Below, piece by piece: positions 1,431 to 28,265 of a DNA stretch of 34,061 nt. This DNA comes from Caldisericota bacterium (lineage in GTDB: Bacteria; Caldisericota; Caldisericia; Cryosericales; Cryosericaceae). Location of the stretch: the NCBI GenBank assembly GCA_026390215.1, contig JAPLGJ010000190.1, positions 1 to 34,061 on the forward strand, given 5' to 3'. How positions within the stretch are numbered: the first letter of the stretch is position 1; each line of letters starts with the position of its first letter. Position numbers and translations under genes: made by a program. A model generated the notes under the pieces. It was not told where the DNA came from. It saw only the letters and a program-made list of their open reading frames with translations, and ran no database searches.

Positions 1431-2770
1431 GCAGGAACTTCGCAGAACTCATCGAGAAGAAGAAGTCCGGCGGCGAGCTCTTGGAAGAAGAGATCTCGTG
1501 GTGGATCGATGGCCTTGTGAGTGGCTCCATCCCCGACTACCAGACATCTGCAATGCTCATGGCCATCTATTTCAGGGGGATGAATCCTCATGAGACTGCC
1601 TGGCTGACGCATTGCATCAGCATAAGTGGAGACATCATCGACCTCTCTTCCCTGCGTGGAGTGAAATGTGACAAGCACTCATCGGGGGGCGTCGCCGACA
1701 CCGTGTCCATACCCCTCATTGCTATTGCCACAAGCTGTGGCGCCGTGATGCCCAAAATGTCGGGAAGGGGACTCGGCCATTCCGGTGGGACAATCGACAA
1801 GCTTGAGTCGATTCCGGGTTTCGACGTCAACTTGACGCCTCTGGCGTTCGCGGACGTCGTCAACCGTTTTGGTGGAGCCATCATGGCTCAGACCGGCGAT
1901 GTAGCCGTCGCCGACAAGAAGCTATACGCTCTCCGTGACGTGACAGCGACGGTGGATTCGGTGCCTCTCATCGCATCCAGCATCATGGGCAAGAAGCTTG
2001 CCTCAGGGACGGACGTGATCGTCCTCGATGTGAAGTGGGGTTCGGGTGCATTCATGACAAGCACATTGGAGGCCATCGAACTGGCGAAGACCATGGTTGG
2101 CATAGGAGAGGACAACGGCAAGACGACCGTGGCCTATGTGACGGATATGAATGAGCCGCTGGGCAACGCAGTAGGCAATGCCCTCGAGATCGTCGAGGCC
2201 GTCCAGGTCCTGAAGGGGCATGGGCCAGCCAAATTGGTCGATGTCATCCTGACGCTGTGCGACGAAGTCCTCATGCAAAGTGGAGTCGCTCACAAGCGCG
2301 AGGACGCCAGAACAATGGCGATCGACGCCATCGCCAGCGGGAACGCGCTGCAGCGCTTCGCAGATATCGTGAAGGCGCAGGGAGGCGATCCGGCATTCAT
2401 CGACCGGCCCGAGGTTTTGCCACAGGCGGCAGTCACGCGTCCGGTCTATGCTCCTTGCGGTGGATTCGTCACGAGCATTGATGCAAAAGGCATCGGGCTG
2501 GCTGCCATGCACCTTGGTGCAGGACGCCGAACGAAGGAAGACGTCATCGATCTAGCCGTCGGCCTGGTCCTGGACGTCAAGACTGGCGATGCCGTCAGCG
2601 CCGGGCACCAGATCGCGACCGTCTACGCACGCACGGAGGGTGACGCAGCTACGTGCGAGCAGGAGATCCTGCGAGCGACCGTCGTCGGGCAAGCGTCCGT
2701 CCCTCGGTGGCAGACCGTCGTGGCAAAGATCAGTCGTGCGGACGGTGTGGTGACGTACGAGCAGTCGTGA
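1424..2770 (+). CDS. pdp: Pyrimidine-nucleoside/thymidine phosphorylase
   Basis: Motifs DKHSSGGVAD, KMSGRGLGHSGGTIDKLESIPGF, ADKKLYALRDVTATV, SSIMGKK, LDVKWGSGAFM, LGAGR. Confidence 0.95.
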   Translation: MLSRNFAELIEKKKSGGELLEEEISWWIDGLVSGSIPDYQTSAMLMAIYFRGMNPHETAWLTHCISISGDIIDLSSLRGVKCDKHSSGGVADTVSIPLIAIATSCGAVMPKMSGRGLGHSGGTIDKLESIPGFDVNLTPLAFADVVNRFGGAIMAQTGDVAVADKKLYALRDVTATVDSVPLIASSIMGKKLASGTDVIVLDVKWGSGAFMTSTLEAIELAKTMVGIGEDNGKTTVAYVTDMNEPLGNAVGNALEIVEAVQVLKGHGPAKLVDVILTLCDEVLMQSGVAHKREDARTMAIDAIASGNALQRFADIVKAQGGDPAFIDRPEVLPQAAVTRPVYAPCGGFVTSIDAKGIGLAAMHLGAGRRTKEDVIDLAVGLVLDVKTGDAVSAGHQIATVYARTEGDAATCEQEILRATVVGQASVPRWQTVVAKISRADGVVTYEQS

Positions 2771-5373
2771 AAACGGTCATTCTTGGCCACGCGGGTGCGG
2801 ACTTTGATTGTGTAGCCTCAATGGCCGGGCTCTCTCGGCTGTATGCCGGGGCCGTCCCAGTGTTGCCCGGATCCCTCGAACCGAACGTTGAGGAGTTTCT
2901 GCGGCTGTACGAGGGACGTTTTCGTTTTGTACGCATGCCTGCACCTGTCTTGCTGAAAGAAGACATCGAAACGGTCGTCATTGCTGACACGATCGTCGCA
3001 TCCCGTCTCGGTGAGTACAAAGAGGTCCTCTCGCTCCCTGGGATCAGGCTGGTCGCCTATGACCATCATGAACCAAACTCAGCGAGCCTGGCACATATTG
3101 ACGAGGGGCATATCCGGAAGTGTGGAGCGACCGCGTCGCTTGTGACCGCTGCGCTCCGTGAACGGCTGGTTCCCGTGAATCCGGACGAGGCGACACTCCT
3201 TGCCCTTGGCATCTACGAGGACACGGGCTCCCTGCTGTTTCCCGAGACGACAGCGTTCGACGTCGAACAGGCGGCGTATCTGCTCAAGGCTGGGGCAAGC
3301 CTCTCCATGGTCGCCCGCTATGTCACGACCTACCTGGTCCCGGATCAGCAAACGGCCCTCGAGAACGCGCTGAGCAATGCACAGGTCAGGACAGTGGCTG
3401 GAGCACAGATAGCATTTTCGATCGTGCATGCAGAGCGGAACGTCGGCAACCTCTCGGTCATCGTCCACCGGCTGGCTCAGATCATCAAGGCGGAGGCGTT
3501 GTTTCTCATCTACCAGACCCCCCAGTCGCTCTACGTTCTCGGGCGCAGTGACCGCCTGCTCAACGTTGCAGAGCTGCTCGCCCCTCTGGGTGGAGCAGGC
3601 CGTATCCATGCGGCAGCATCCATCCTGCGAGACGGGACATCTGCTGAGACTGCACAGGAACACATTATATCAGCGATAGCCGCGAGGCGTACCCAGTGGC
3701 GTCAGGTCGTGCGCGATATCATGACCCCCCATCCCGCGACAGTCTCCCAGGACCGGGTTGCCGAGGAAGCCTTGCAGATCATGGTCAATCTTGGGTTCTC
3801 AGTCCTGCCGGTCGAACGCGACGGCCAAGTTGTCGGCGTCGTGGCCAAGAAAGCTCTCGAGAAGACTTCCCTCATGCGCCTCCAGCAGAAGCCCGTGCAC
3901 TACTTCCTGAATACGCGCATTCCAGCCGTCCCCCTCACTGCAACCGTCGAGGAGCTCATACAGGCGTTTGGCACCTACAACACGGGCCTCCTTCTGGTCA
4001 TGGAACAGGAGCACCTTCTGGGGGTGGTGTCGAGGTCCGACGTCCTCCGCTACCTCAATAGCACCGCACATCCACAGAGCGTCGTGGGTGCAACAGGCGG
4101 TCGGGTCATCGCGCGTTCCGACCTCGATCGCCTGGGAGGAAGCGATACTGCAGCGATACTGGCCACAATCGGTCAGATAGGGGATGCCGAGGAAAACCGG
4201 GCCTATCTGGTCGGTGGCTCAGTACGCGACGTCCTCCTCGGCAGGCCTCCCAACGACGTTGACATCGTTACGGAGAAGGACGTCTCAGGCGTTGCCGCGG
4301 CAGTCGCGGCCTCCTTCGGAACCAACGTGATCTCGTATGGGCGCTTCATGACGCACAAGGTTCGCATCCGGGGTCGGGAGTACGACTTTGCCGCCGCTCG
4401 CCTCGAGTACTACGACTTTCCAGGCTCGCTGCCCACGGTCGCTCCTGCAACACTGATAAAGGATCTGCTGAGAAGAGACTTCACGGTGAATGCTCTTGCC
4501 ATGTCTCTCTCAGAAAGCGATTTCGGCACGATCATCGACGCCACCGGAGGGCTCAAGGACCTCGACGCCCGGATCATCCGGATGACCTACGCCGACAGCT
4601 TCATCGAAGACCCAGCGCGGATACTGCGTGCCGTGGCAGCCCAGACACGGCTAAGCTTCATCCTCGAGGACGGCACCCGGGACAAGGCGAGGGAGGCCCT
4701 GGAGCTCGGGCTCCTGAACGTCCGCCGCAACAGACGTGCACAGGACGAGTTCAAGGAGCTGCTCTCGGGAGGGACGGGCGTCGCATGCATTACGGCGCTT
4801 TGCTCGCTCGGATGTGGACTCATCGGGCTTCCACTGGTCCCGCCACGGGCCGCAAGACTCCGGCTCCTATCAGCCCTCGGAGATGCCCGCAAACCGGTCA
4901 TGAATGGCCTGAACGCTCCTCTCTGGGTTGCGCCGCTTCTCGTGTGGCTGGGCAACATCTCTTCGGGGGCCGTACAGGAGGTCCTCAAGGACTTCGGCCT
5001 GAGTGACCGCCTTGCGGCGGCGTTTCACTCGTGGCAGCGAAGGGAGCGTGGGATGCGCCGCCTTCTGGAGCAAGGATCATCCAAGGTGAGCGCCATAGCA
5101 GCCAAGCTCGAAGGCATTCCCTTGCCTGTGCTCTCGATCCTGGAGGCCCATCTTGCCGGATTGGAGACCAGCGGGCCCCACGACCTCCTCCTGACAGTCC
5201 TGGCAAGGATGGACAAGCCACGACTGGTCTCAGGTAAGGACGTCGTGATCCTTGGCATTCCCGAGGGACGGCGGGTGGGAATGCTTCTCGACCAAGTACG
5301 ACGCCTCCAGCTGGACGGTATCATCGGCTCCAGGGAGGAGGCTGTGGCGTATCTGTGCGCGTCGAAAGGTTGA
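2767..5373 (+). CDS. DHH-DHHA1-CBS-fused class II tRNA nucleotidyltransferase (CCA- or A-adding)
   Basis: GTG at 2767 overlaps the pdp stop (GTGA). N-terminal HxxADFD, DHH and GIYEDTG motifs, a CBS pair, then LVGGSVRD..DVDI, RRDFTVNA and EDPARILRA. Confidence 0.92.
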   Translation: MKTVILGHAGADFDCVASMAGLSRLYAGAVPVLPGSLEPNVEEFLRLYEGRFRFVRMPAPVLLKEDIETVVIADTIVASRLGEYKEVLSLPGIRLVAYDHHEPNSASLAHIDEGHIRKCGATASLVTAALRERLVPVNPDEATLLALGIYEDTGSLLFPETTAFDVEQAAYLLKAGASLSMVARYVTTYLVPDQQTALENALSNAQVRTVAGAQIAFSIVHAERNVGNLSVIVHRLAQIIKAEALFLIYQTPQSLYVLGRSDRLLNVAELLAPLGGAGRIHAAASILRDGTSAETAQEHIISAIAARRTQWRQVVRDIMTPHPATVSQDRVAEEALQIMVNLGFSVLPVERDGQVVGVVAKKALEKTSLMRLQQKPVHYFLNTRIPAVPLTATVEELIQAFGTYNTGLLLVMEQEHLLGVVSRSDVLRYLNSTAHPQSVVGATGGRVIARSDLDRLGGSDTAAILATIGQIGDAEENRAYLVGGSVRDVLLGRPPNDVDIVTEKDVSGVAAAVAASFGTNVISYGRFMTHKVRIRGREYDFAAARLEYYDFPGSLPTVAPATLIKDLLRRDFTVNALAMSLSESDFGTIIDATGGLKDLDARIIRMTYADSFIEDPARILRAVAAQTRLSFILEDGTRDKAREALELGLLNVRRNRRAQDEFKELLSGGTGVACITALCSLGCGLIGLPLVPPRAARLRLLSALGDARKPVMNGLNAPLWVAPLLVWLGNISSGAVQEVLKDFGLSDRLAAAFHSWQRRERGMRRLLEQGSSKVSAIAAKLEGIPLPVLSILEAHLAGLETSGPHDLLLTVLARMDKPRLVSGKDVVILGIPEGRRVGMLLDQVRRLQLDGIIGSREEAVAYLCASKG

Positions 5374-5397
5374 CGCACGGCCGTCCCCGCCTATAAT
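5370..5397 (+). promoter_or_regulatory. Sigma70-type promoter of tRNA-Ile2
   Basis: TTGACG-16 nt-TATAAT, about 40 nt upstream of the tRNA. The -35 overlaps the upstream stop codon. Confidence 0.75.
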
Positions 5398-5438
5398 AAG
5401 CATGGCGCAGGCCCTTTGCTGACGTGCGCACAGCGCAG

Positions 5439-5513
5439 GGGCCCATAGCTCAACGGTAGAGCAGGTGGCTCATAACCACTTGGTTCTTGGTTCGAATCCA
5501 GGTGGGCCCACCA
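5439..5513 (+). tRNA. tRNA with CAT anticodon, most likely Ile2 (lysidine-modified)
   Basis: Acceptor GGGCCCA/TGGGCCC followed by A-CCA; anticodon arm GGTGG-CTCATAA-CCACT; T-loop TTCGAAT. The paired G1-C72 excludes fMet, and the anticodon region resembles E. coli ileX. Confidence 0.9.
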
Positions 5514-5755
5514 CATACTGCAAAGCCGCTCTGAAACTGACTCTAGAGCCTTCCTTCTTCACAGATCCTCCCCGGCAACTGCCTTCGCCCGCTGTGCCGA
5601 AACCAGACTTATCCTGGCAGCCACCGGCCACAACGATCTAGCTGAGAACAAAGGTTTCCCCAGCCACTCTTGTCCGAACTGGCGCCATCGAGCCTTCGGA
5701 CTCCCCATCTCGCGCGAGCGAAACCGTTTCATGTTGTTTCTGACTGCACAAGCAG
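5514..5755 (+). repeat. ~242-bp non-coding direct repeat, copy 1
   Basis: Ungapped match to 7801-8042 (offset 2287), about 17 mismatches by manual count, with weaker similarity for about 30 bp more. Confidence 0.95.
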
Positions 5756-5780
5756 GCCCGATGCGCTTTTCCTGTTTCCC

Positions 5781-5809
5781 TTGACATTGCTGCAATTCGT
5801 TAGTACTCT
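5781..5809 (+). promoter_or_regulatory. Putative promoter of the island surface-protein gene
   Basis: TTGACA-17 nt-TACTCT. Palindrome ATTGC-T-GCAAT at 5786-5796 lies in the spacer. Confidence 0.55.
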
Positions 5810-5951
5810 AGGTAATAGGTACCCCTCCGCCGGTGGTCCGGTGAGTGATTGGTTGAACGTGGCCGTCCTGATGCGGCATTCTCGATCACATTCCTCGTGG
5901 TTCTGTAATCCCGTCCCGTTTCAACAGCCCAAGGCAAGAAGGAGGTATGGG

Positions 5952-7634
5952 GTGAAGAGGGTCTTTTGTGTGTTTCTCGTCTTTATGCTTGTACTTTCAA
6001 TCTTCTCTTTCTCGCTAACGCCCAAGAATATGATCCTTAGAGCAGATGAATCTTATCAATGGATGAGCGCAAATACTGGACTCAGAACCAACGAGATTTA
6101 CTCTTTTGCGATTGACCCTACGAATACGCAGGTGATCTATACAGGAACGTATAGCATTGGCGTATTCAAGTCAACGAACGGAGGAACTTCATGGAGTGAT
6201 GCAAATACTGGGATCACGGACTTGGATATTTGGACTCTTGCAATTGACCCAACGAATACAAGCACTGTCTATGTAACGACATGGGGTGGCGGCGTATTCA
6301 AGTCAACGAACGGAGGAACTTCATGGAGTGCTGCAAGTACTGGACTTACAGACGTGAGAGACTTGTATGTTGCATGTATTGCAATTGACCCGACAAACAC
6401 AAGCACTCTCTATGCAGCAACAAATGGTGGCGTATTCAAGTCAACGAACGGAGGAACTTCATGGAGTGCTGTAAGTGCCGGACTCACAAGCTTGCTTGTT
6501 CAATCCCTTGCAATTGACCCGACAAACACAAGCACTCTCTATGCAACAACAAATGGTGGCGGCGTATTCAAGTCGACGAACGGAGGAACTTCATGGAGTG
6601 CTGTGAATACCGGACTTGCAGACTTGAATATTGGGGTTCTTGTTATTGACCCAACAAGTACAAGCACTCTCTATGCGGCAACAACAGGACAGGGTCGTGG
6701 TGGCGGCGTATTCAAGTCGACGAACGGAGGAACTTCATGGAGTGCCATAAATGCTGGACTTCAAGGCCATTTTGATTATATCCAGCTTGCAGTTGACCCA
6801 ACAAATACGGGCATTGTCTATGCAGGAACATGGGGTGGTGGCATATTCAAGTTGACGAGCGGAGGAACCTCATGGAGTGGCATAAATGCCGGACTTAGAG
6901 GCTCCTTTGATGTCTCCGCTCTTGCAGTTGACCCGGCAAATACAGGCATTATCTATGCAGGAATATGGGGTGGTGGCATATTCAAGTATGTCCCTCAGTC
7001 TAGTATTCCCAAGTACACAATCACTTCTTCCGCCGGTTCAGGTGGCCATATCTCCCCCTCAGGTACTGTAACTGTTGAGGACAATTATTCGGAGACGTTC
7101 ACACTTATGCCTGATTCAGGATATAGGATTTCTGAGGTCAAGGTCGATGGAGTATCGAAAGGTTCTATCTCCCTGTATACCTTTTTGAACATTACCTCAA
7201 ACCATGTGATAGAGGCTCGATTTGAGAGAGAGATAGCGCAAACAGTGATTATCCTTCAGATCGGAAAGTCCAATTTCACCGTGAATGGAGTTTCAAACAC
7301 CTTAGACTCACCACCTGTCGTCAAGAACAGCAGAACACTGCTTCCAATAAGAGCAATCATTGAATCTCTTGGTGGAACAGTCTCATGGGACGCAACTGAA
7401 AGAAAGGTTACAGTATCACTTGGTTCAACGAGTATTGAACTCTGGATAGGTAAGAGCGCTGCAGAGGTGAATGGCGTGGATACCGCTATTGATTCGACTA
7501 ACTCAAAGGTTGTGCCTGAGATAGTGAATTCAAGAACTATGTTGCCTTTGAGATTTGTAACAGAGAATCTCGGCTGTGATGTGCAGTGGGATGGAACTAC
7601 GAAGACAATTACAATAACACATCAGGCACCATAG
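5952..7634 (+). CDS. Secreted BNR/Asp-box beta-propeller protein with a beta-sandwich repeat and C-terminal copper-amine-oxidase N-terminal-like (stalk) domain
   Basis: SD AGGAGGT precedes GTG 5952. Signal peptide KRVFCVFLVFMLVLSIFSF; repeats of AIDPTNTSTLYA..GGVFKSTNGGTSWS; YTITSSAGSGGHISPSG module; C-terminal PPVVKNSRTLLPIRAIIESLGG / RTMLPLRFVTENLG. Confidence 0.88.
   Translation: MKRVFCVFLVFMLVLSIFSFSLTPKNMILRADESYQWMSANTGLRTNEIYSFAIDPTNTQVIYTGTYSIGVFKSTNGGTSWSDANTGITDLDIWTLAIDPTNTSTVYVTTWGGGVFKSTNGGTSWSAASTGLTDVRDLYVACIAIDPTNTSTLYAATNGGVFKSTNGGTSWSAVSAGLTSLLVQSLAIDPTNTSTLYATTNGGGVFKSTNGGTSWSAVNTGLADLNIGVLVIDPTSTSTLYAATTGQGRGGGVFKSTNGGTSWSAINAGLQGHFDYIQLAVDPTNTGIVYAGTWGGGIFKLTSGGTSWSGINAGLRGSFDVSALAVDPANTGIIYAGIWGGGIFKYVPQSSIPKYTITSSAGSGGHISPSGTVTVEDNYSETFTLMPDSGYRISEVKVDGVSKGSISLYTFLNITSNHVIEARFEREIAQTVIILQIGKSNFTVNGVSNTLDSPPVVKNSRTLLPIRAIIESLGGTVSWDATERKVTVSLGSTSIELWIGKSAAEVNGVDTAIDSTNSKVVPEIVNSRTMLPLRFVTENLGCDVQWDGTTKTITITHQAP
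6100..6990 (+). repeat. Intragenic tandem repeats of ~132-144 bp (propeller blades), about 7 copies
   Basis: GGCGTATTCAAGTC(A/G)ACGAACGGAGGAACTTCATGGAGTG at about 6159, 6291, 6429, 6561 and 6705, with variants at about 6840 and 6975. Confidence 0.92.
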
Positions 7635-7662
7635 AGAGACTGTCAGTACAGGTCAGTATCCG

Positions 7663-7692
7663 AACCCCTTGCTGAAAGTGCAAGGGGTTTTT
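7663..7692 (+). terminator. Intrinsic terminator of the island gene
   Basis: AACCCCTTGC-TGAAAGT-GCAAGGGGTT followed by TTT. Confidence 0.85.
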
Positions 7693-7774
7693 CCATGGTT
7701 AAGCCTCATCAAATACCACCTTATAGCTTGAAAGTCGCTCAAAATCAGAAAAGAACTTGGAAATGTCATCTGTA

Positions 7775-7800
7775 CGAGGTTCGACTCCCCGCCGTTACAG
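7775..7800 (+). pseudogene. Decayed tRNA/tmRNA-like 3' fragment (T-arm)
   Basis: CGAGG-TTCGACT-CCCCG T-arm (one mismatch) directly before repeat copy 2, in the same position as the real tRNA before copy 1. Confidence 0.5.
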
Positions 7801-8042
7801 CATACTGCAAAGCCACTCTGGAACTGACTCTAGAGCCTTTCTCTTCTAAAGATCCTCCCCAGTAACTGCCTTCGCCCGCTGTGCCGAAACCAGACTTATC
7901 CTGGCAGCCACCGGCCACAACGATCTAGCTGAGAACAAAGACCTCCCCAGCCACTCTTGTCCGAACTGGCACCATCGAGCCTTCGGACTCCCCATCTCGC
8001 GCGAGCGAAACCGTTCCATGTTGTTTCGGACTGGACAAGCAG
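7801..8042 (+). repeat. ~242-bp non-coding direct repeat, copy 2
   Basis: Matches 5514-5755; both begin CATACTGCAAAGCC. Confidence 0.95.
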
Positions 8043-8303
8043 CCTGAAGGCGAGTTCCCTGTTTCTCCCCATTGCCGATAGGACTTATCAGACTAGACTA
8101 ATGTAGTAACGAGTATCGGTTCTTGGAGACTAGGGTAGTGAACGTCGGGAAGATATCCCCCTGATCCTGGAAGGTGCTATCTCTCCCTCAGTTCTGGTGC
8201 TGCTGTACGTGAGGACCCATGGCCCCTGTCGTTCGTGGATTGCTCAACAATCCTGCTGAGTTGCGACAATTCCGTGAGCAATTAGTTCCAACTGGAATCG
8301 CCC

Positions 8304-8313
8304 GGGCCCACCA
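8304..8313 (+). other. Putative att duplication of the tRNA-Ile2 3' end
   Basis: GGGCCCACCA is identical to 5504-5513 and lies just before housekeeping genes resume. Confidence 0.6.
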
Positions 8314-8343
8314 TGGTGTCATAATCGTCGATGAGGTGAATTC

Positions 8344-9075
8344 ATGCTAATAGACAAACTCTGGGAACTTCAGGAACTCCAGTTGGACTATCGGCAGAAG
8401 GAACGTCTTCTGGAGGAGTCTGACTTGTCTTCATTGTTGAGTCACAAGATCGACGAGACCGAGGAACAGCTGACCGCACTGCGCGAGCAGCTGGAAACAT
8501 TCAGGGCCGACGAGGTCAGGATCGGTGAGAAGCTGGACGACCTTTCGGCGAAGGTTCACGAAGCAGGCGCGAAACTCGGGAAGGAAGAAATGTCCGAGGA
8601 CAAGGTCCAGAAACTCGAGGAGAAGATGAAGAAGCTCACCCTCGAGAAGGAGAAGGTCGAGGATGCGCAGGGGAAGAACTTCCACGATCGGCAGGATGTC
8701 GAAGATCAGACCAGAGCATCGGAATTGCTGGCAGAGAAGCTTCGCAAGGAGCTCGTTACCATTCCACAGTTGGACAGGACCTCGAGAGCTGCCGTGAAGA
8801 AGTCTCTCCCTGCCTTGCGCAAGGAAATGGAGGATCGCAAGTCGAAGCTGCCGCTGAAAGCCAAGCTGATCTTCGAGAGTCTTTCAGAGAAGTTCAGCGG
8901 AGCGCCCGTTGCAAGAGCGGCGAGTTCGACCTGTGACTACTGTCACGTGAGACTGTCCCAGAAGACACTGTTCAATCTTCGCAATGCAGAGGGCGGTAGT
9001 GGTGATGCTGAGGATCTCATCCGTTGCGAGATCTGCGGCAAGATCCTGTACGCTGGTACCAAGGACCGCGAATGA
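8344..9075 (+). CDS. Coiled-coil protein with C-terminal C4 zinc ribbon (DUF164/CT398-like)
   Basis: SD GAGGTG; starts LWELQELQ; long coiled coil; CDYCH..CEICGKIL. Confidence 0.88.
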   Translation: MLIDKLWELQELQLDYRQKERLLEESDLSSLLSHKIDETEEQLTALREQLETFRADEVRIGEKLDDLSAKVHEAGAKLGKEEMSEDKVQKLEEKMKKLTLEKEKVEDAQGKNFHDRQDVEDQTRASELLAEKLRKELVTIPQLDRTSRAAVKKSLPALRKEMEDRKSKLPLKAKLIFESLSEKFSGAPVARAASSTCDYCHVRLSQKTLFNLRNAEGGSGDAEDLIRCEICGKILYAGTKDRE

Positions 9076-9380
9076 GTCAGTCGCAGGCAGGAGATCTTCC
9101 TGCTTGAGGAAAGTCCGGGCTCCAAGAAGCGAGTTGCTCGGGAAACCCGAGTGGGGGTAACCCCAAGGAAAGCGCAACAGAAAATATACCGCCCCGCAAG
9201 GGGTAAGGGTGAAATGGTGGTGCAAGAGACCACCGGCAGACCAGCGATGGGCTGCGCATTGCAAACCCCAACTGGAGCAAGACAAAATAGGAAGGCACAC
9301 AGGGCTGCTTCTCCCTGCCTTCGGGTATGTCGCTTAGATAAATGACTGACCACGACAGAACCTGGCTTATCATTCGCGGT
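9065..9380 (+). ncRNA. rnpB: RNase P RNA (bacterial type A-like)
   Basis: GAGGAAAGTCCGGGCTCC near the 5' end and ACAGAACCTGGCTTA near the 3' end; P1 ACCGCGAATGA/TCATTCGCGGT; P2 GTCAGTC/GACTGAC. Confidence 0.96.
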
Positions 9381-9384
9381 ATAT

Positions 9385-9521
9385 GAAGAGACCCCGGCCG
9401 TACTTCGGAAGGGGTCTCTGCGTTTGTCGTATAGCAGGAGACCCCGGCCGTACTTCGGAAGGGGTCTCTGCGTTTGTCGTATAGCAGGAGACCCCGGCCG
9501 TACTTCGGAAGGGGTCTCTTC
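9385..9521. repeat. 50-bp tandem repeat (about 2.6 copies) of a hairpin; likely a bidirectional terminator region between rnpB and tpiA
   Basis: GAGACCCC-GGCCGTACTTCGGAA-GGGGTCTC at 9388, 9438 and 9488 with identical linkers. Outer ends GAAGAGACCCC/GGGGTCTCTTC are complementary. Confidence 0.9.
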
Positions 9522-9552
9522 ACATACCCGACGGACAGCGTTTGGCAGAGAG

Positions 9553-10314
9553 CTACACCTGCTCTGCGATCGCAATCAGCTCGGCGAAGGCGGCCGGCTT
9601 GAGGCTGGCCCCTCCGATCAGTCCGCCGTCCACCGAAGGGAGGCCCGCGATCGAGGCGAAGTTGGCCGGCTTGACGCTCCCGCCGTACAGAATCGCGACA
9701 GAGCCACCAACTACCGATCCTAGAAGCTGCTTGAGGTGCTCGCGGATGAGGAGGTGCGCTTCCTCGATCTGCTCATTCGTGGCATTCACCCCTGTTCCAA
9801 TGGCCCATACCGGCTCATAGGCGACGATGAGCTGAGCACCGTCGGTGAGCTGGACGTCAGTGAGGGCGGTGTCCAGCTGCCCGAACACCACTTCCTCGAT
9901 CTTCCCCGCATTGCGCTCCTCGAGCGTCTCTCCAACGCACAAGACAGGAATCAGGGACGCCTGCAGGGAGTTGACCAGCTTGCGATGAAGGAGAGCGGCT
10001 GACTCGCCGATGATGTGTCTGCGCTCCGAATGCCCTATCAGTACGTGGGTCGCCCCTGTTGAGCGGATCATGGCCGGTGACACTTCTCCGGTGAACGCGC
10101 CTTCTGCGTCGGCCGCGACATCTTGAGCGCCGAGTTGCACCCAGGCTGGTACCACCCCTGTCTTTGCCAGCGCCCCCAATGCGATGTAGTTGGGGAACAC
10201 GAGGACTCGCACCTTGTCCCCCTGCGGGGGAGTGGTGGCGGTCAGCTCGGCAAAGTAGGCCCCCGACTCCTCAATGGTTTTGAACATCTTCCAGTTTCCC
10301 GCGACGATTTTCAT
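9553..10314 (-). CDS. tpiA: Triosephosphate isomerase
   Basis: MKIVAGNWKM after SD AAGGAG; GHSERR, AYEPVWAIGTG, YGGSVKP, GGASL. Confidence 0.97.
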   Translation of the reverse strand: MKIVAGNWKMFKTIEESGAYFAELTATTPPQGDKVRVLVFPNYIALGALAKTGVVPAWVQLGAQDVAADAEGAFTGEVSPAMIRSTGATHVLIGHSERRHIIGESAALLHRKLVNSLQASLIPVLCVGETLEERNAGKIEEVVFGQLDTALTDVQLTDGAQLIVAYEPVWAIGTGVNATNEQIEEAHLLIREHLKQLLGSVVGGSVAILYGGSVKPANFASIAGLPSVDGGLIGGASLKPAAFAELIAIAEQV

Positions 10315-28171: not shown

Positions 28172-28176
28172 GGCGC

Positions 28177-28242
28177 CTGTCCCCTGTTACAACAACTACG
28201 GCTGTCCCCTGTTACAACAACTACGGCTGTCCCCTGTTACAA
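28177..28242. repeat. 25-bp tandem repeat, about 2.6 copies
   Basis: CTGTCCCCTGTTACAACAACTACGG at 28177 and 28202, partial at 28227. Confidence 0.92.
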
Positions 28243-28265
28243 GGCTGGGAGCACCTGCGCCAAGC

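What the first reader, a model, noticed from the sequence alone, without database searches (positions are those of the whole stretch)
5504..8313. Integrase-less, tRNA-anchored cassette island: [tRNA 3' end + 242-bp arm] units bracketing a self-contained surface-protein gene
Seen, in order: tRNA-Ile2 CCA, 242-bp arm, promoter, propeller gene, terminator, decayed tRNA-like T-arm, second 242-bp arm (about 93% identical by manual count), ~260 bp without a clear ORF, then a GGGCCCACCA copy of the tRNA end. No recombinase gene is present. Known: tyrosine-integrase islands target tRNA 3' ends and can stack in tandem, but usually carry their own int. Inference: this is a non-autonomous cassette-capture platform where the conserved arm serves as an att arm for a trans-acting integrase, or as a homology arm, to add or swap surface-protein cassettes. 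It is the best candidate for an undescribed system in this window.
Basis: partly seen in the sequence, partly recalled or inferred. Interest (0 to 1): 0.75.

Follow-up and report, generated by a model that had tools for sequence, protein, structure and literature searches.

The report
Integrase-less serine-recombinase island at tRNA end
A 2.8-kb piece of foreign DNA carrying a surface-protein gene sits at the very end of a tRNA gene in a Cryosericum bacterium, and although it encodes no recombinase, its ends show that it likely belongs to a widespread family of islands moved by large serine recombinases, enzymes long said not to target tRNA genes.

Summary
The anatomy is real: 5514-8313 is an insertion at the CCA of tRNA-Ile2; 11 of 22 relatives have the site empty and 6 hold other DNA. 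But the key part is the '260 bp without an ORF' (R1, 8071-8313), which ends islands at Ile2, Met, Glu and Arg tRNAs in 8 of 22 relatives. Read backwards from CCA it gives a conserved peptide in the same frame in which 508-aa large serine recombinase (LSR) genes run into tRNA ends, so it is likely the split-off gene tail and attP arm. Its GGTTCCA sits 5 bp further out than the tRNA T-loop GGTTCRA (21/21 versus 36/36), the attP/attB shift known for LSRs. The 'decayed T-arm' is a second arm type (R3). Only the first ~85 nt of the 242-bp arm is a conserved left end (8 copies, 5 genomes), never attached to a recombinase. Best reading: a recombinase-less composite of two formerly stacked elements, likely moved as one unit by an LSR in trans; none was found in this 83%-complete genome. 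Closest known: Dehalococcoides ssrA islands (DsiB) and CIMEs. No circle seen; no evidence for homology-arm cassette swapping.

The parts
5439..5513 (+). Host tRNA-Ile2 (CAT); its CCA end is the insertion site (left junction)
   Evidence: identical tRNA followed directly by the native 30-bp spacer in empty relatives
5514..5600 (+). A1: conserved left end of the element ('A-type'); motif CTCTGRRACTSACTCTAGAGC 15 nt after the junction
   Evidence: 8 copies in 5 of 84 genomes, 0 control matches; 7 of 8 directly follow a tRNA CCA or an arm end, the eighth is A2
5601..5739 (+).
   Evidence: no match in relatives or fetched loci
5740..5935 (+). Dispersed promoter/leader module (TTGACA 5781-5786, TACTCT 5804-5809, conserved core about 5825-5880) found ahead of many different island genes
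   Evidence: 14 matches in 6 of 22 relatives, different downstream ORFs; hairpins without covariation
5952..7634 (+). Cargo: 560-aa predicted surface protein (signal-peptide-like start, BNR/Vps10 propeller repeats, Cu_amine_oxidN1 C-terminal domain)
   Evidence: low GC and GC3
7662..7694 (+). Terminator-like hairpin (11-bp stem, T run)
   Evidence: fold; conserved position in three relatives; not called by the scanner
7636..7800 (+). R3: right arm of the inner, older unit, ending in a tRNA-T-arm mimic whose CCA has decayed (…CCGTTACAG); internal fossil junction with A2
   Evidence: homologues in G014 (1) and G032 (2) all end in CCACCA; minus-strand peptide RRGVEPRTDDISKFFSDFERL matches theirs
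7801..8072 (+). A2: second left end, broken off at the start of the promoter module
   Evidence: 225 of 242 identical to A1; homology ends about 8065-8072
8071..8313 (-). R1: right arm (attR side); minus strand from the core reads VGPGDSSWN*LLTELSQLSRIVEQ, the predicted cut-off LSR tail, here with a stop at codon 10; T-loop mimic AGTTCCA at 8284-8290
8304..8313 (+). 10-nt repeat of the tRNA end (right junction); across other elements only about 6 nt are shared with the target tRNA
8344..9075 (+). Host C4 zinc-ribbon gene marking the native flank

Best explanation
The 2,800-bp insertion is a recombinase-less composite island whose ends likely serve as the attachment arms of a large serine recombinase (LSR) family that recombines at the CCA of tRNA genes. 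Shown: in intact relatives the LSR gene lies at the tRNA-proximal end, reads towards the tRNA and finishes inside it on the opposite strand, while the far end of the element (R1) carries an in-frame continuation. Inferred: the crossover site lies inside the LSR gene, the free circle encodes the native tail, and integration swaps it for antisense-tRNA codons; the enzyme would read the T-loop GGTTCRA in attB and its mimic GGTTCCA, 5 bp further out, in attP. Inferred history here: two sister elements with A-type left ends were once stacked, [A1-promoter-surface gene-terminator-R3] and [A2-deleted middle-R1]; the inner R3/A2 junction decayed, and the pair was likely excised and inserted as one unit through its outer ends A1 and R1 by an LSR acting in trans or since lost, as for cis-mobilisable elements.
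For: Insertion: 11 of 22 relatives empty, including G019 (flanks 89-95% identical), 6 with other DNA, 3 with an unrelated ~240-bp spacer, 2 uninformative. R1 in 8 of 22 genus genomes and not in 61 other genomes of the class beyond two 27-nt chance-level hits; it closes islands at tRNA-Ile2, Met, Glu and Arg. Ten LSRs (nine of 507-508 aa with PF00239+PF07508+PF13408, one fragment) all end in antisense tRNA-Glu; in G011 a full LSR at tRNA-Glu and the next right arm, R1, bound a 22.5-kb element. LSR ends and R1 tails share one reading frame across the core, and two natural junctions put LSR 3' remnants next to R1 (L044 in frame; L039 broken). Of 80 metagenome loci, 53 show the C-terminus with enough flank; 39 of 53 have an antisense tRNA starting there, 38 of 39 in the same codon phase. 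In a second subfamily 8 of 17 proteins end in tRNA-Ala antisense and 8 of 17 in a non-tRNA tail. Motif offset -30 in 21 of 21 R1 ends and -25 in 36 of 36 tRNAs, matching the 5-bp ZD shift described in PMC3783163 (passages). G014 holds an independent 3,852-bp A-type...surface gene-terminator-R3 element at tRNA-Ala(CGC) with no LSR. Of 8 tRNA-proximal elements with both ends on one contig, 1 has a full LSR, 1 a 3' fragment, 6 none. Similar fossil junctions (R2/left end/R1) occur at 5 places in 3 genomes.
Against: No LSR was found in this genome (83% complete), so the enzyme that acted is not identified. No A-type end is attached to a recombinase in 8 genomic copies or in the 6 hits of a full protein-library search, all short ORFs of 70-198 aa; its likeness to LSR gene ends is a 16-nt motif only and the two window copies do not score. 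An R1-tail profile did not significantly match the two native-looking tails among metagenome LSRs (L140, L146). Whole-length codon periodicity of R1 is weak, clear only in the first 22 codons. An inverted copy of the motif in left ends is inconsistent. In G002 the arm nearest the LSR is a partial R2, about 400 bp before R1. No excised circle or recombination was observed. Genomes are related and are not independent samples.
Confidence: 0.72

Rival explanations
1. Purely decayed stack: two autonomous LSR elements inserted one after the other at this very tRNA, then lost their recombinase genes and other cargo by deletion in place; the ends are now inert and nothing is mobilised in trans.
For: LSR remnants of many lengths at tRNA-proximal ends (L037, L015, L011, L072, L039); A2 joins R1 at an apparent deletion; stop codon in the window's R1 tail; no LSR in this genome.
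Against: The inner junction is decayed and resembles the elongator tRNA-Met end, not Ile2, while the outer junction is intact; the nearest relative is empty; LSR-less A-type ends keep one register at three tRNA types.
Confidence: 0.17
2. One reading: the 242-bp arm is a dedicated homology or capture arm through which surface-protein cassettes are added or swapped.
For: Two 93%-identical copies bracket the gene; surface-protein genes are frequent in these islands.
Against: The middle of the arm has no relative in 40 genomes or the fetched loci; other cargo sits behind other left ends; exact scans for the arm motif found 1 locus in genome contigs and 0 in metagenome contigs.
Confidence: 0.05
3. 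A tyrosine integrase of the usual tRNA-targeting kind made the island (or its inner R3 unit) and was lost.
For: R3 mimics the T-arm at the same offset as a displaced tRNA fragment; tRNA islands are classically tyrosine-integrase products (PMC4383910, passages).
Against: Most genus genomes have a single PF00589 match, and none of the matches lies at an R1-bounded island examined; shared junction is only about 6 nt at other sites; R3 differs from the host tRNA between T-loop and CCA; LSR genes, not tyrosine integrases, occupy the proximal ends.
Confidence: 0.06

Closest known systems
Dehalococcoides ssrA genomic islands with serine integrase DsiB (McMurdie et al. 2011, PMC3146451; passages read)
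   Same: ~540-aa serine recombinase next to attL on the reverse strand, gene always overlapping attL with its stop beyond the junction; tandem islands; 15 islands without integration module proposed to be cis-mobilisable.
   Different: Target there is tmRNA with a 20-bp repeat and a six-gene module (dsiA, parB, mom...); here many tRNA isotypes, about 6-10 nt shared, no such module identified beside the LSR (not systematically checked), and a conserved split-off tail with a 5-bp-shifted T-loop mimic.
CIMEs and accretion of tandem elements (review PMC5704250; passages read)
   Same: Element lacking integration genes but keeping attL/attR; stacking at a gene's 3' end; possible movement of a composite as one unit.
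   Different: In the passages read the tRNA-end elements use tyrosine integrases and serine-recombinase elements disrupt genes; here serine recombinase arms at an undisrupted tRNA end; no conjugation genes seen.
Phage-type large serine integrases (LI/A118, phiC31, Bxb1; PMC3783163, passages read)
   Same: Domain order resolvase-recombinase-zinc ribbon; very short shared core; 5-bp outward shift of a motif in attP relative to attB.
   Different: Motif lies further from the presumed core than LI's 16-24/11-19; only one half-site of attB is conserved; attP inside the integrase gene.
Mx8 and SSV integrases that extend across attP (mentioned in PMC4383910)
   Same: Integration into a tRNA gene splits the integrase gene and changes its C-terminus.
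   Different: Those are tyrosine recombinases.
Tyrosine-integrase tRNA islands of the Islander database (PMC4383910)
   Same: tRNA regenerated at one end, copy of its 3' end at the other, tandem arrays.
   Different: That paper states serine recombinases are not known to target tRNA genes; the short repeat and missing integrase would fail its filters.

Membership tests
Large serine recombinase integrative element | Recombinase with resolvase, recombinase and zinc-ribbon domains on the element | tested here: not met
   Absent from the island and not found in this 83%-complete genome; met in sister R1-ended element of G011
Large serine recombinase integrative element | Precise insertion with a short shared core and an empty allele | tested here: met
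   11 of 22 relatives empty; 10 nt shared here, 6 nt at five other junctions, 1 nt at one decayed end
Large serine recombinase integrative element | attP motif shifted 5 bp outward relative to attB | tested here: met
   GGTTCCA at -30 in 21 of 21 R1 ends, GGTTCRA at -25 in 36 of 36 tRNAs; that this motif is the ZD site is inferred
Large serine recombinase integrative element | Inverted copy of the motif in the other attP half-site | tested here: inconclusive
   Partial matches at -26 in several LSR left ends and -25 in A2, not consistent over 14 left ends
Large serine recombinase integrative element | Recombination activity / excised circle | not testable with these tools
   Only assembled contigs were available; no junction listed
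CIME (cis-mobilisable element) | No integration or transfer genes, both att ends kept | tested here: met
   One cargo ORF only; A1 and R1 ends intact at the junctions
CIME (cis-mobilisable element) | Mobilised together with an adjacent autonomous element | tested here: inconclusive
   No autonomous neighbour now; fossil inner junction suggests past accretion
Dehalococcoides ssrA-GI / DsiB | Target is ssrA with a 20-bp repeat | tested here: not met
   Targets are tRNAs; own tmRNA end differs
Dehalococcoides ssrA-GI / DsiB | [quoted passage not shown] | tested here: met
   In sister elements, not in this island
Dehalococcoides ssrA-GI / DsiB | Six-gene integration module; sequence kinship with DsiB | not tested
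   DsiB was not fetched; genes beside the LSR were not annotated
Tyrosine-integrase tRNA island | Tyrosine integrase on or beside the island; displaced fragment from anticodon or T-loop | tested here: not met
   Single PF00589 match in this genome, on another contig; repeat limited to the last 10 nt

The most novel reading that the evidence does not exclude
A-type ends define a standing family of non-autonomous shuttles in Cryosericum: a fixed ~85-nt left end with no recombinase, able to pair with any of three arm types (R1, R2, R3), is moved in trans by T-loop-reading serine recombinases to almost any tRNA CCA, so that surface-protein and other cargo genes are stacked and reshuffled across species and even families of the class.
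Probability: 0.25. Interest if true: 0.75.

Novelty: new variant of a known kind. Interest (0 to 1): 0.5.

Why it matters
Island finders built on the rule that only tyrosine integrases use tRNA genes (stated in PMC4383910) would miss these islands, which appear to carry much of the variable surface-protein content of Cryosericum. If the enzyme recognises the universal T-loop plus CCA, one LSR clade offers non-disruptive landing sites in most bacteria, and the 5-bp-shifted mimic gives a direct, cheap test. The tail swap also offers a simple way to couple directionality to integration state. The island itself is a small, partly decayed passenger; the general design has a precedent at tmRNA and was noted repeatedly by earlier agents of this scan.

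Tried and rejected
Arm as a genome-wide repeat: only 2 copies in G000. Exact-pattern scans: arm motif 1 locus in genome contigs, 0 in metagenome contigs; R1 pattern 0 in viral contigs. R1 as a structured RNA: consensus fold weak, covariation term -0.8; Rfam found only the tRNA and RNase P RNA at meaningful scores in 5300-9600. Arm A as LSR gene remnant: tblastn with LSRs gave no hit in the window; DNA profile of Ala-subfamily gene ends matched only a 16-nt motif; profile search of 1.84 billion proteins gave 6 short ORFs, no recombinase: unresolved. Sequencing runs: 4 of 20 runs hold most of the island, all one study and possibly the source; only contigs; no joint skipping the island, no circle joint, and no listed contig bridging the empty tRNA-flank site by 31 nt each side (tables were cut). 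Island contigs had about half to two-thirds the depth of flank contigs, which the tool says is no share of cells, so it is not used as evidence. Promoter-module core as an RNA element: hairpins but 0 of 18 pairs covary in 6 sequences. The ~400-500-bp [left end + R1] blocks as independent MITEs: two copies share the upstream R2 as well, so they read better as ends of composites. First cargo comparison used a wrong frame and was redone. Mageeney et al. 2020 (TIGER paper) is not held and was not seen; it may discuss serine integrases at tRNAs. Literature searches showed no listing that describes a tRNA-CCA-targeting LSR clade; Durrant et al. (PMC10083194) has 0 occurrences of tRNA in its main text (supplements not read); PMC13626063 shows S-int by site category in a figure I could not see. 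No structure or complex prediction was run.
Full report
Observation. The window is contig C172 of an 83%-complete, 1.34-Mb genome; record titles of relatives name the genus Candidatus Cryosericum.

It is an insertion. I located the tRNA and the downstream zinc-ribbon gene in all 22 genus relatives and read the interval. Eleven have CCA followed by a 30-45-bp spacer and the gene; G019 has the same 30 bp that follow 8313 here. Six hold other DNA on one or both sides (G010, G012, G013, G017, G018, G020; a second tRNA copy in the 10%-contaminated G008 too), three have an unrelated ~240-bp spacer, two end on contig breaks. Four of the filled alleles carry a different, ~800-aa propeller gene on the opposite strand. 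The island is therefore 5514-8313.

The informative part is the right end. The 242-bp arm has two copies in this genome and only partial matches in 2 of 40 relatives. Copies end in CCA or a one-base variant and close islands at tRNA-Ile2, Met, Glu and Arg, often in stacks 2.3-2.9 kb apart. Only about 6 nt are shared with the target tRNA; the 10 nt here partly reflect the R1 consensus resembling Ile2. Read on the minus strand from the CCA, R1 gives VDPGDSSWNLLLAELSRLSKIVEQ, open in most copies, with third-position variation in the first 22 codons; the window copy has a stop at codon 10.

The enzyme. At the tRNA-proximal end of a G019 island lay a 138-aa ORF reading towards the tRNA. Its longer relatives are ten Cryosericum-type large serine recombinases, all finishing with residues read antisense off tRNA-Glu. 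Full genes sit at tRNA-Glu in four genomes, a broken one at Arg, remnants at Leu and Ile2, and further subfamilies at Ala, Asn, Phe and Met. All cross the CCA in the frame in which R1 continues. In G011 the full gene and the next right arm, R1, bound 22.5 kb. The design is general: of the best 80 of 381 metagenome matches, 53 show the C-terminus with flank, 39 of these have an antisense tRNA (Glu, Lys, Ala, Pro) starting there and 38 of 39 share the codon phase; most of the other 14 end in tRNA-like or other tails. In the Ala subfamily both states exist as proteins: 8 of 17 tRNA-tailed, 8 of 17 with a non-tRNA tail from arm type R2, 1 frameshifted. The tail profile of R1 did not significantly match the two native-looking metagenome tails, so tail homology beyond the genus is by eye only.

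Site recognition. GGTTCCA is the best match at -30 from the end in 21 of 21 R1 copies (2 with ties); the T-loop GGTTCRA is at -25 in 36 of 36 CCA-ended tRNAs of this genome (4 with ties). Rutherford et al. (PMC3783163, passages) show that the zinc-domain motif of serine integrases lies 5 bp further out in attP than in attB. I infer that the T-loop is that motif, which would explain how one clade reaches many tRNAs whose downstream flanks differ. The other half-site is not convincingly symmetric.

The inner parts. The 'decayed T-arm' ends a 165-bp arm (R3) found after the same kind of gene end and terminator in G014 and in G032, a low-GC genome of another family; all three homologues end in CCACCA and share a minus-strand peptide. 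G014 has a complete 3,852-bp element at tRNA-Ala(CGC): A-type left end, a different propeller gene (72% identical over the last 189 aa), terminator, R3, no LSR. The first ~85 nt of the arm is a left end seen 8 times in 5 genomes, always at the same distance after a junction (a tRNA, R1, R2, or here R3) and never attached to a recombinase. The last ~35 nt of the arm begin a promoter module that precedes unrelated genes in 6 relatives; A2 breaks off in it and joins R1, a deletion. This genome has a second LSR-less island of about 2.9 kb at tRNA-Ala(GGC) with Ala-type ends. Of 8 tRNA-proximal elements with both ends visible, 6 lack any LSR sequence.

Mechanism and history. Shown: insertion, arm types, LSR placement and frame. 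Inferred: attP inside the LSR gene; crossover at CCA; earlier stacking of [A1...R3] and [A2...R1], perhaps at elongator tRNA-Met, whose end the R3 copy resembles; later movement of the pair by its outer ends, since the inner junction is decayed and the outer ones are not. Similar fossil junctions sit inside other R1-ended elements. Not shown: the acting enzyme (none found here), circles, the route between cells, and the origin of the A-type end.

Comparison. It works like the Dehalococcoides ssrA islands, where the serine integrase DsiB overlaps attL, islands stack, and 15 lack the integration module (PMC3146451, passages), and like CIMEs (PMC5704250, passages). [quoted passage not shown] Also seen as passages only: PMC12884075, PMC10083194, PMC13626063, PMC9580842, PMC12765450; none described this clade in what I read; no supplements were read and the 2020 TIGER paper was unavailable. 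Earlier agents of this scan reported the same split-tail LSR design in other genomes; I reached it before that look-up, and those notes are not independent evidence, but they show the design is a repeat finding of the scan. What this locus adds is the recombinase-less, composite end of the spectrum and the 5-bp-shifted T-loop mimic.

Verdict. Observation confirmed; interpretation partly supported; new variant of a known kind; interest 0.5.

Noticed in passing
window 5740-5935: Dispersed promoter/leader module with a near-invariant core (about 5825-5880) ahead of unrelated island genes in 6 of 22 relatives; many loose contig ends at 5824-5880 in the source-like runs. Origin and function unknown; no covariation in 6 copies.
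   Followed up: partly
G000:C51:1433-4331: Second recombinase-less island of about 2.9 kb in this genome, at tRNA-Ala(GGC), with an Ala-subfamily left end and an R2 right end.
   Followed up: partly
L033:6411-6886, L035:6677-7160, L041:4249-4723, L036:1440-1940, L038:573-970: Homologous 398-501-bp blocks (75-94% identical) made of an Ala-type left end joined to R1, each behind an R2 end, in G020 (3), G011 and G017; same layout as the window's A2+R1 block.
   Followed up: partly
L016, L023, L025, L027: An ~800-aa propeller gene reads inward from the inner end of R1 at the Ile2 site in four species, suggesting an old shared island or an inward promoter in R1.
   Followed up: no
window 9379-9528: Three 50-bp direct repeats, each with a hairpin, starting at the 3' end of the RNase P RNA gene (9065-9384).
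   Followed up: no
window 28174-28248: Three 25-bp direct repeats upstream of the tRNA-Gly/Cys/Leu cluster; the same tRNA-Leu(TAA) carries an LSR remnant in G008 (L072).
   Followed up: no
window 2653-5373: The gene just upstream of the target tRNA is a DHH-CBS-PolyA_pol (CCA-adding-type) protein.
   Followed up: no
G000, 12 other contigs: At least 12 further contigs encode the same C-terminal Cu_amine_oxidN1-type domain, so the cargo belongs to a large paralogous surface-protein family.
   Followed up: no
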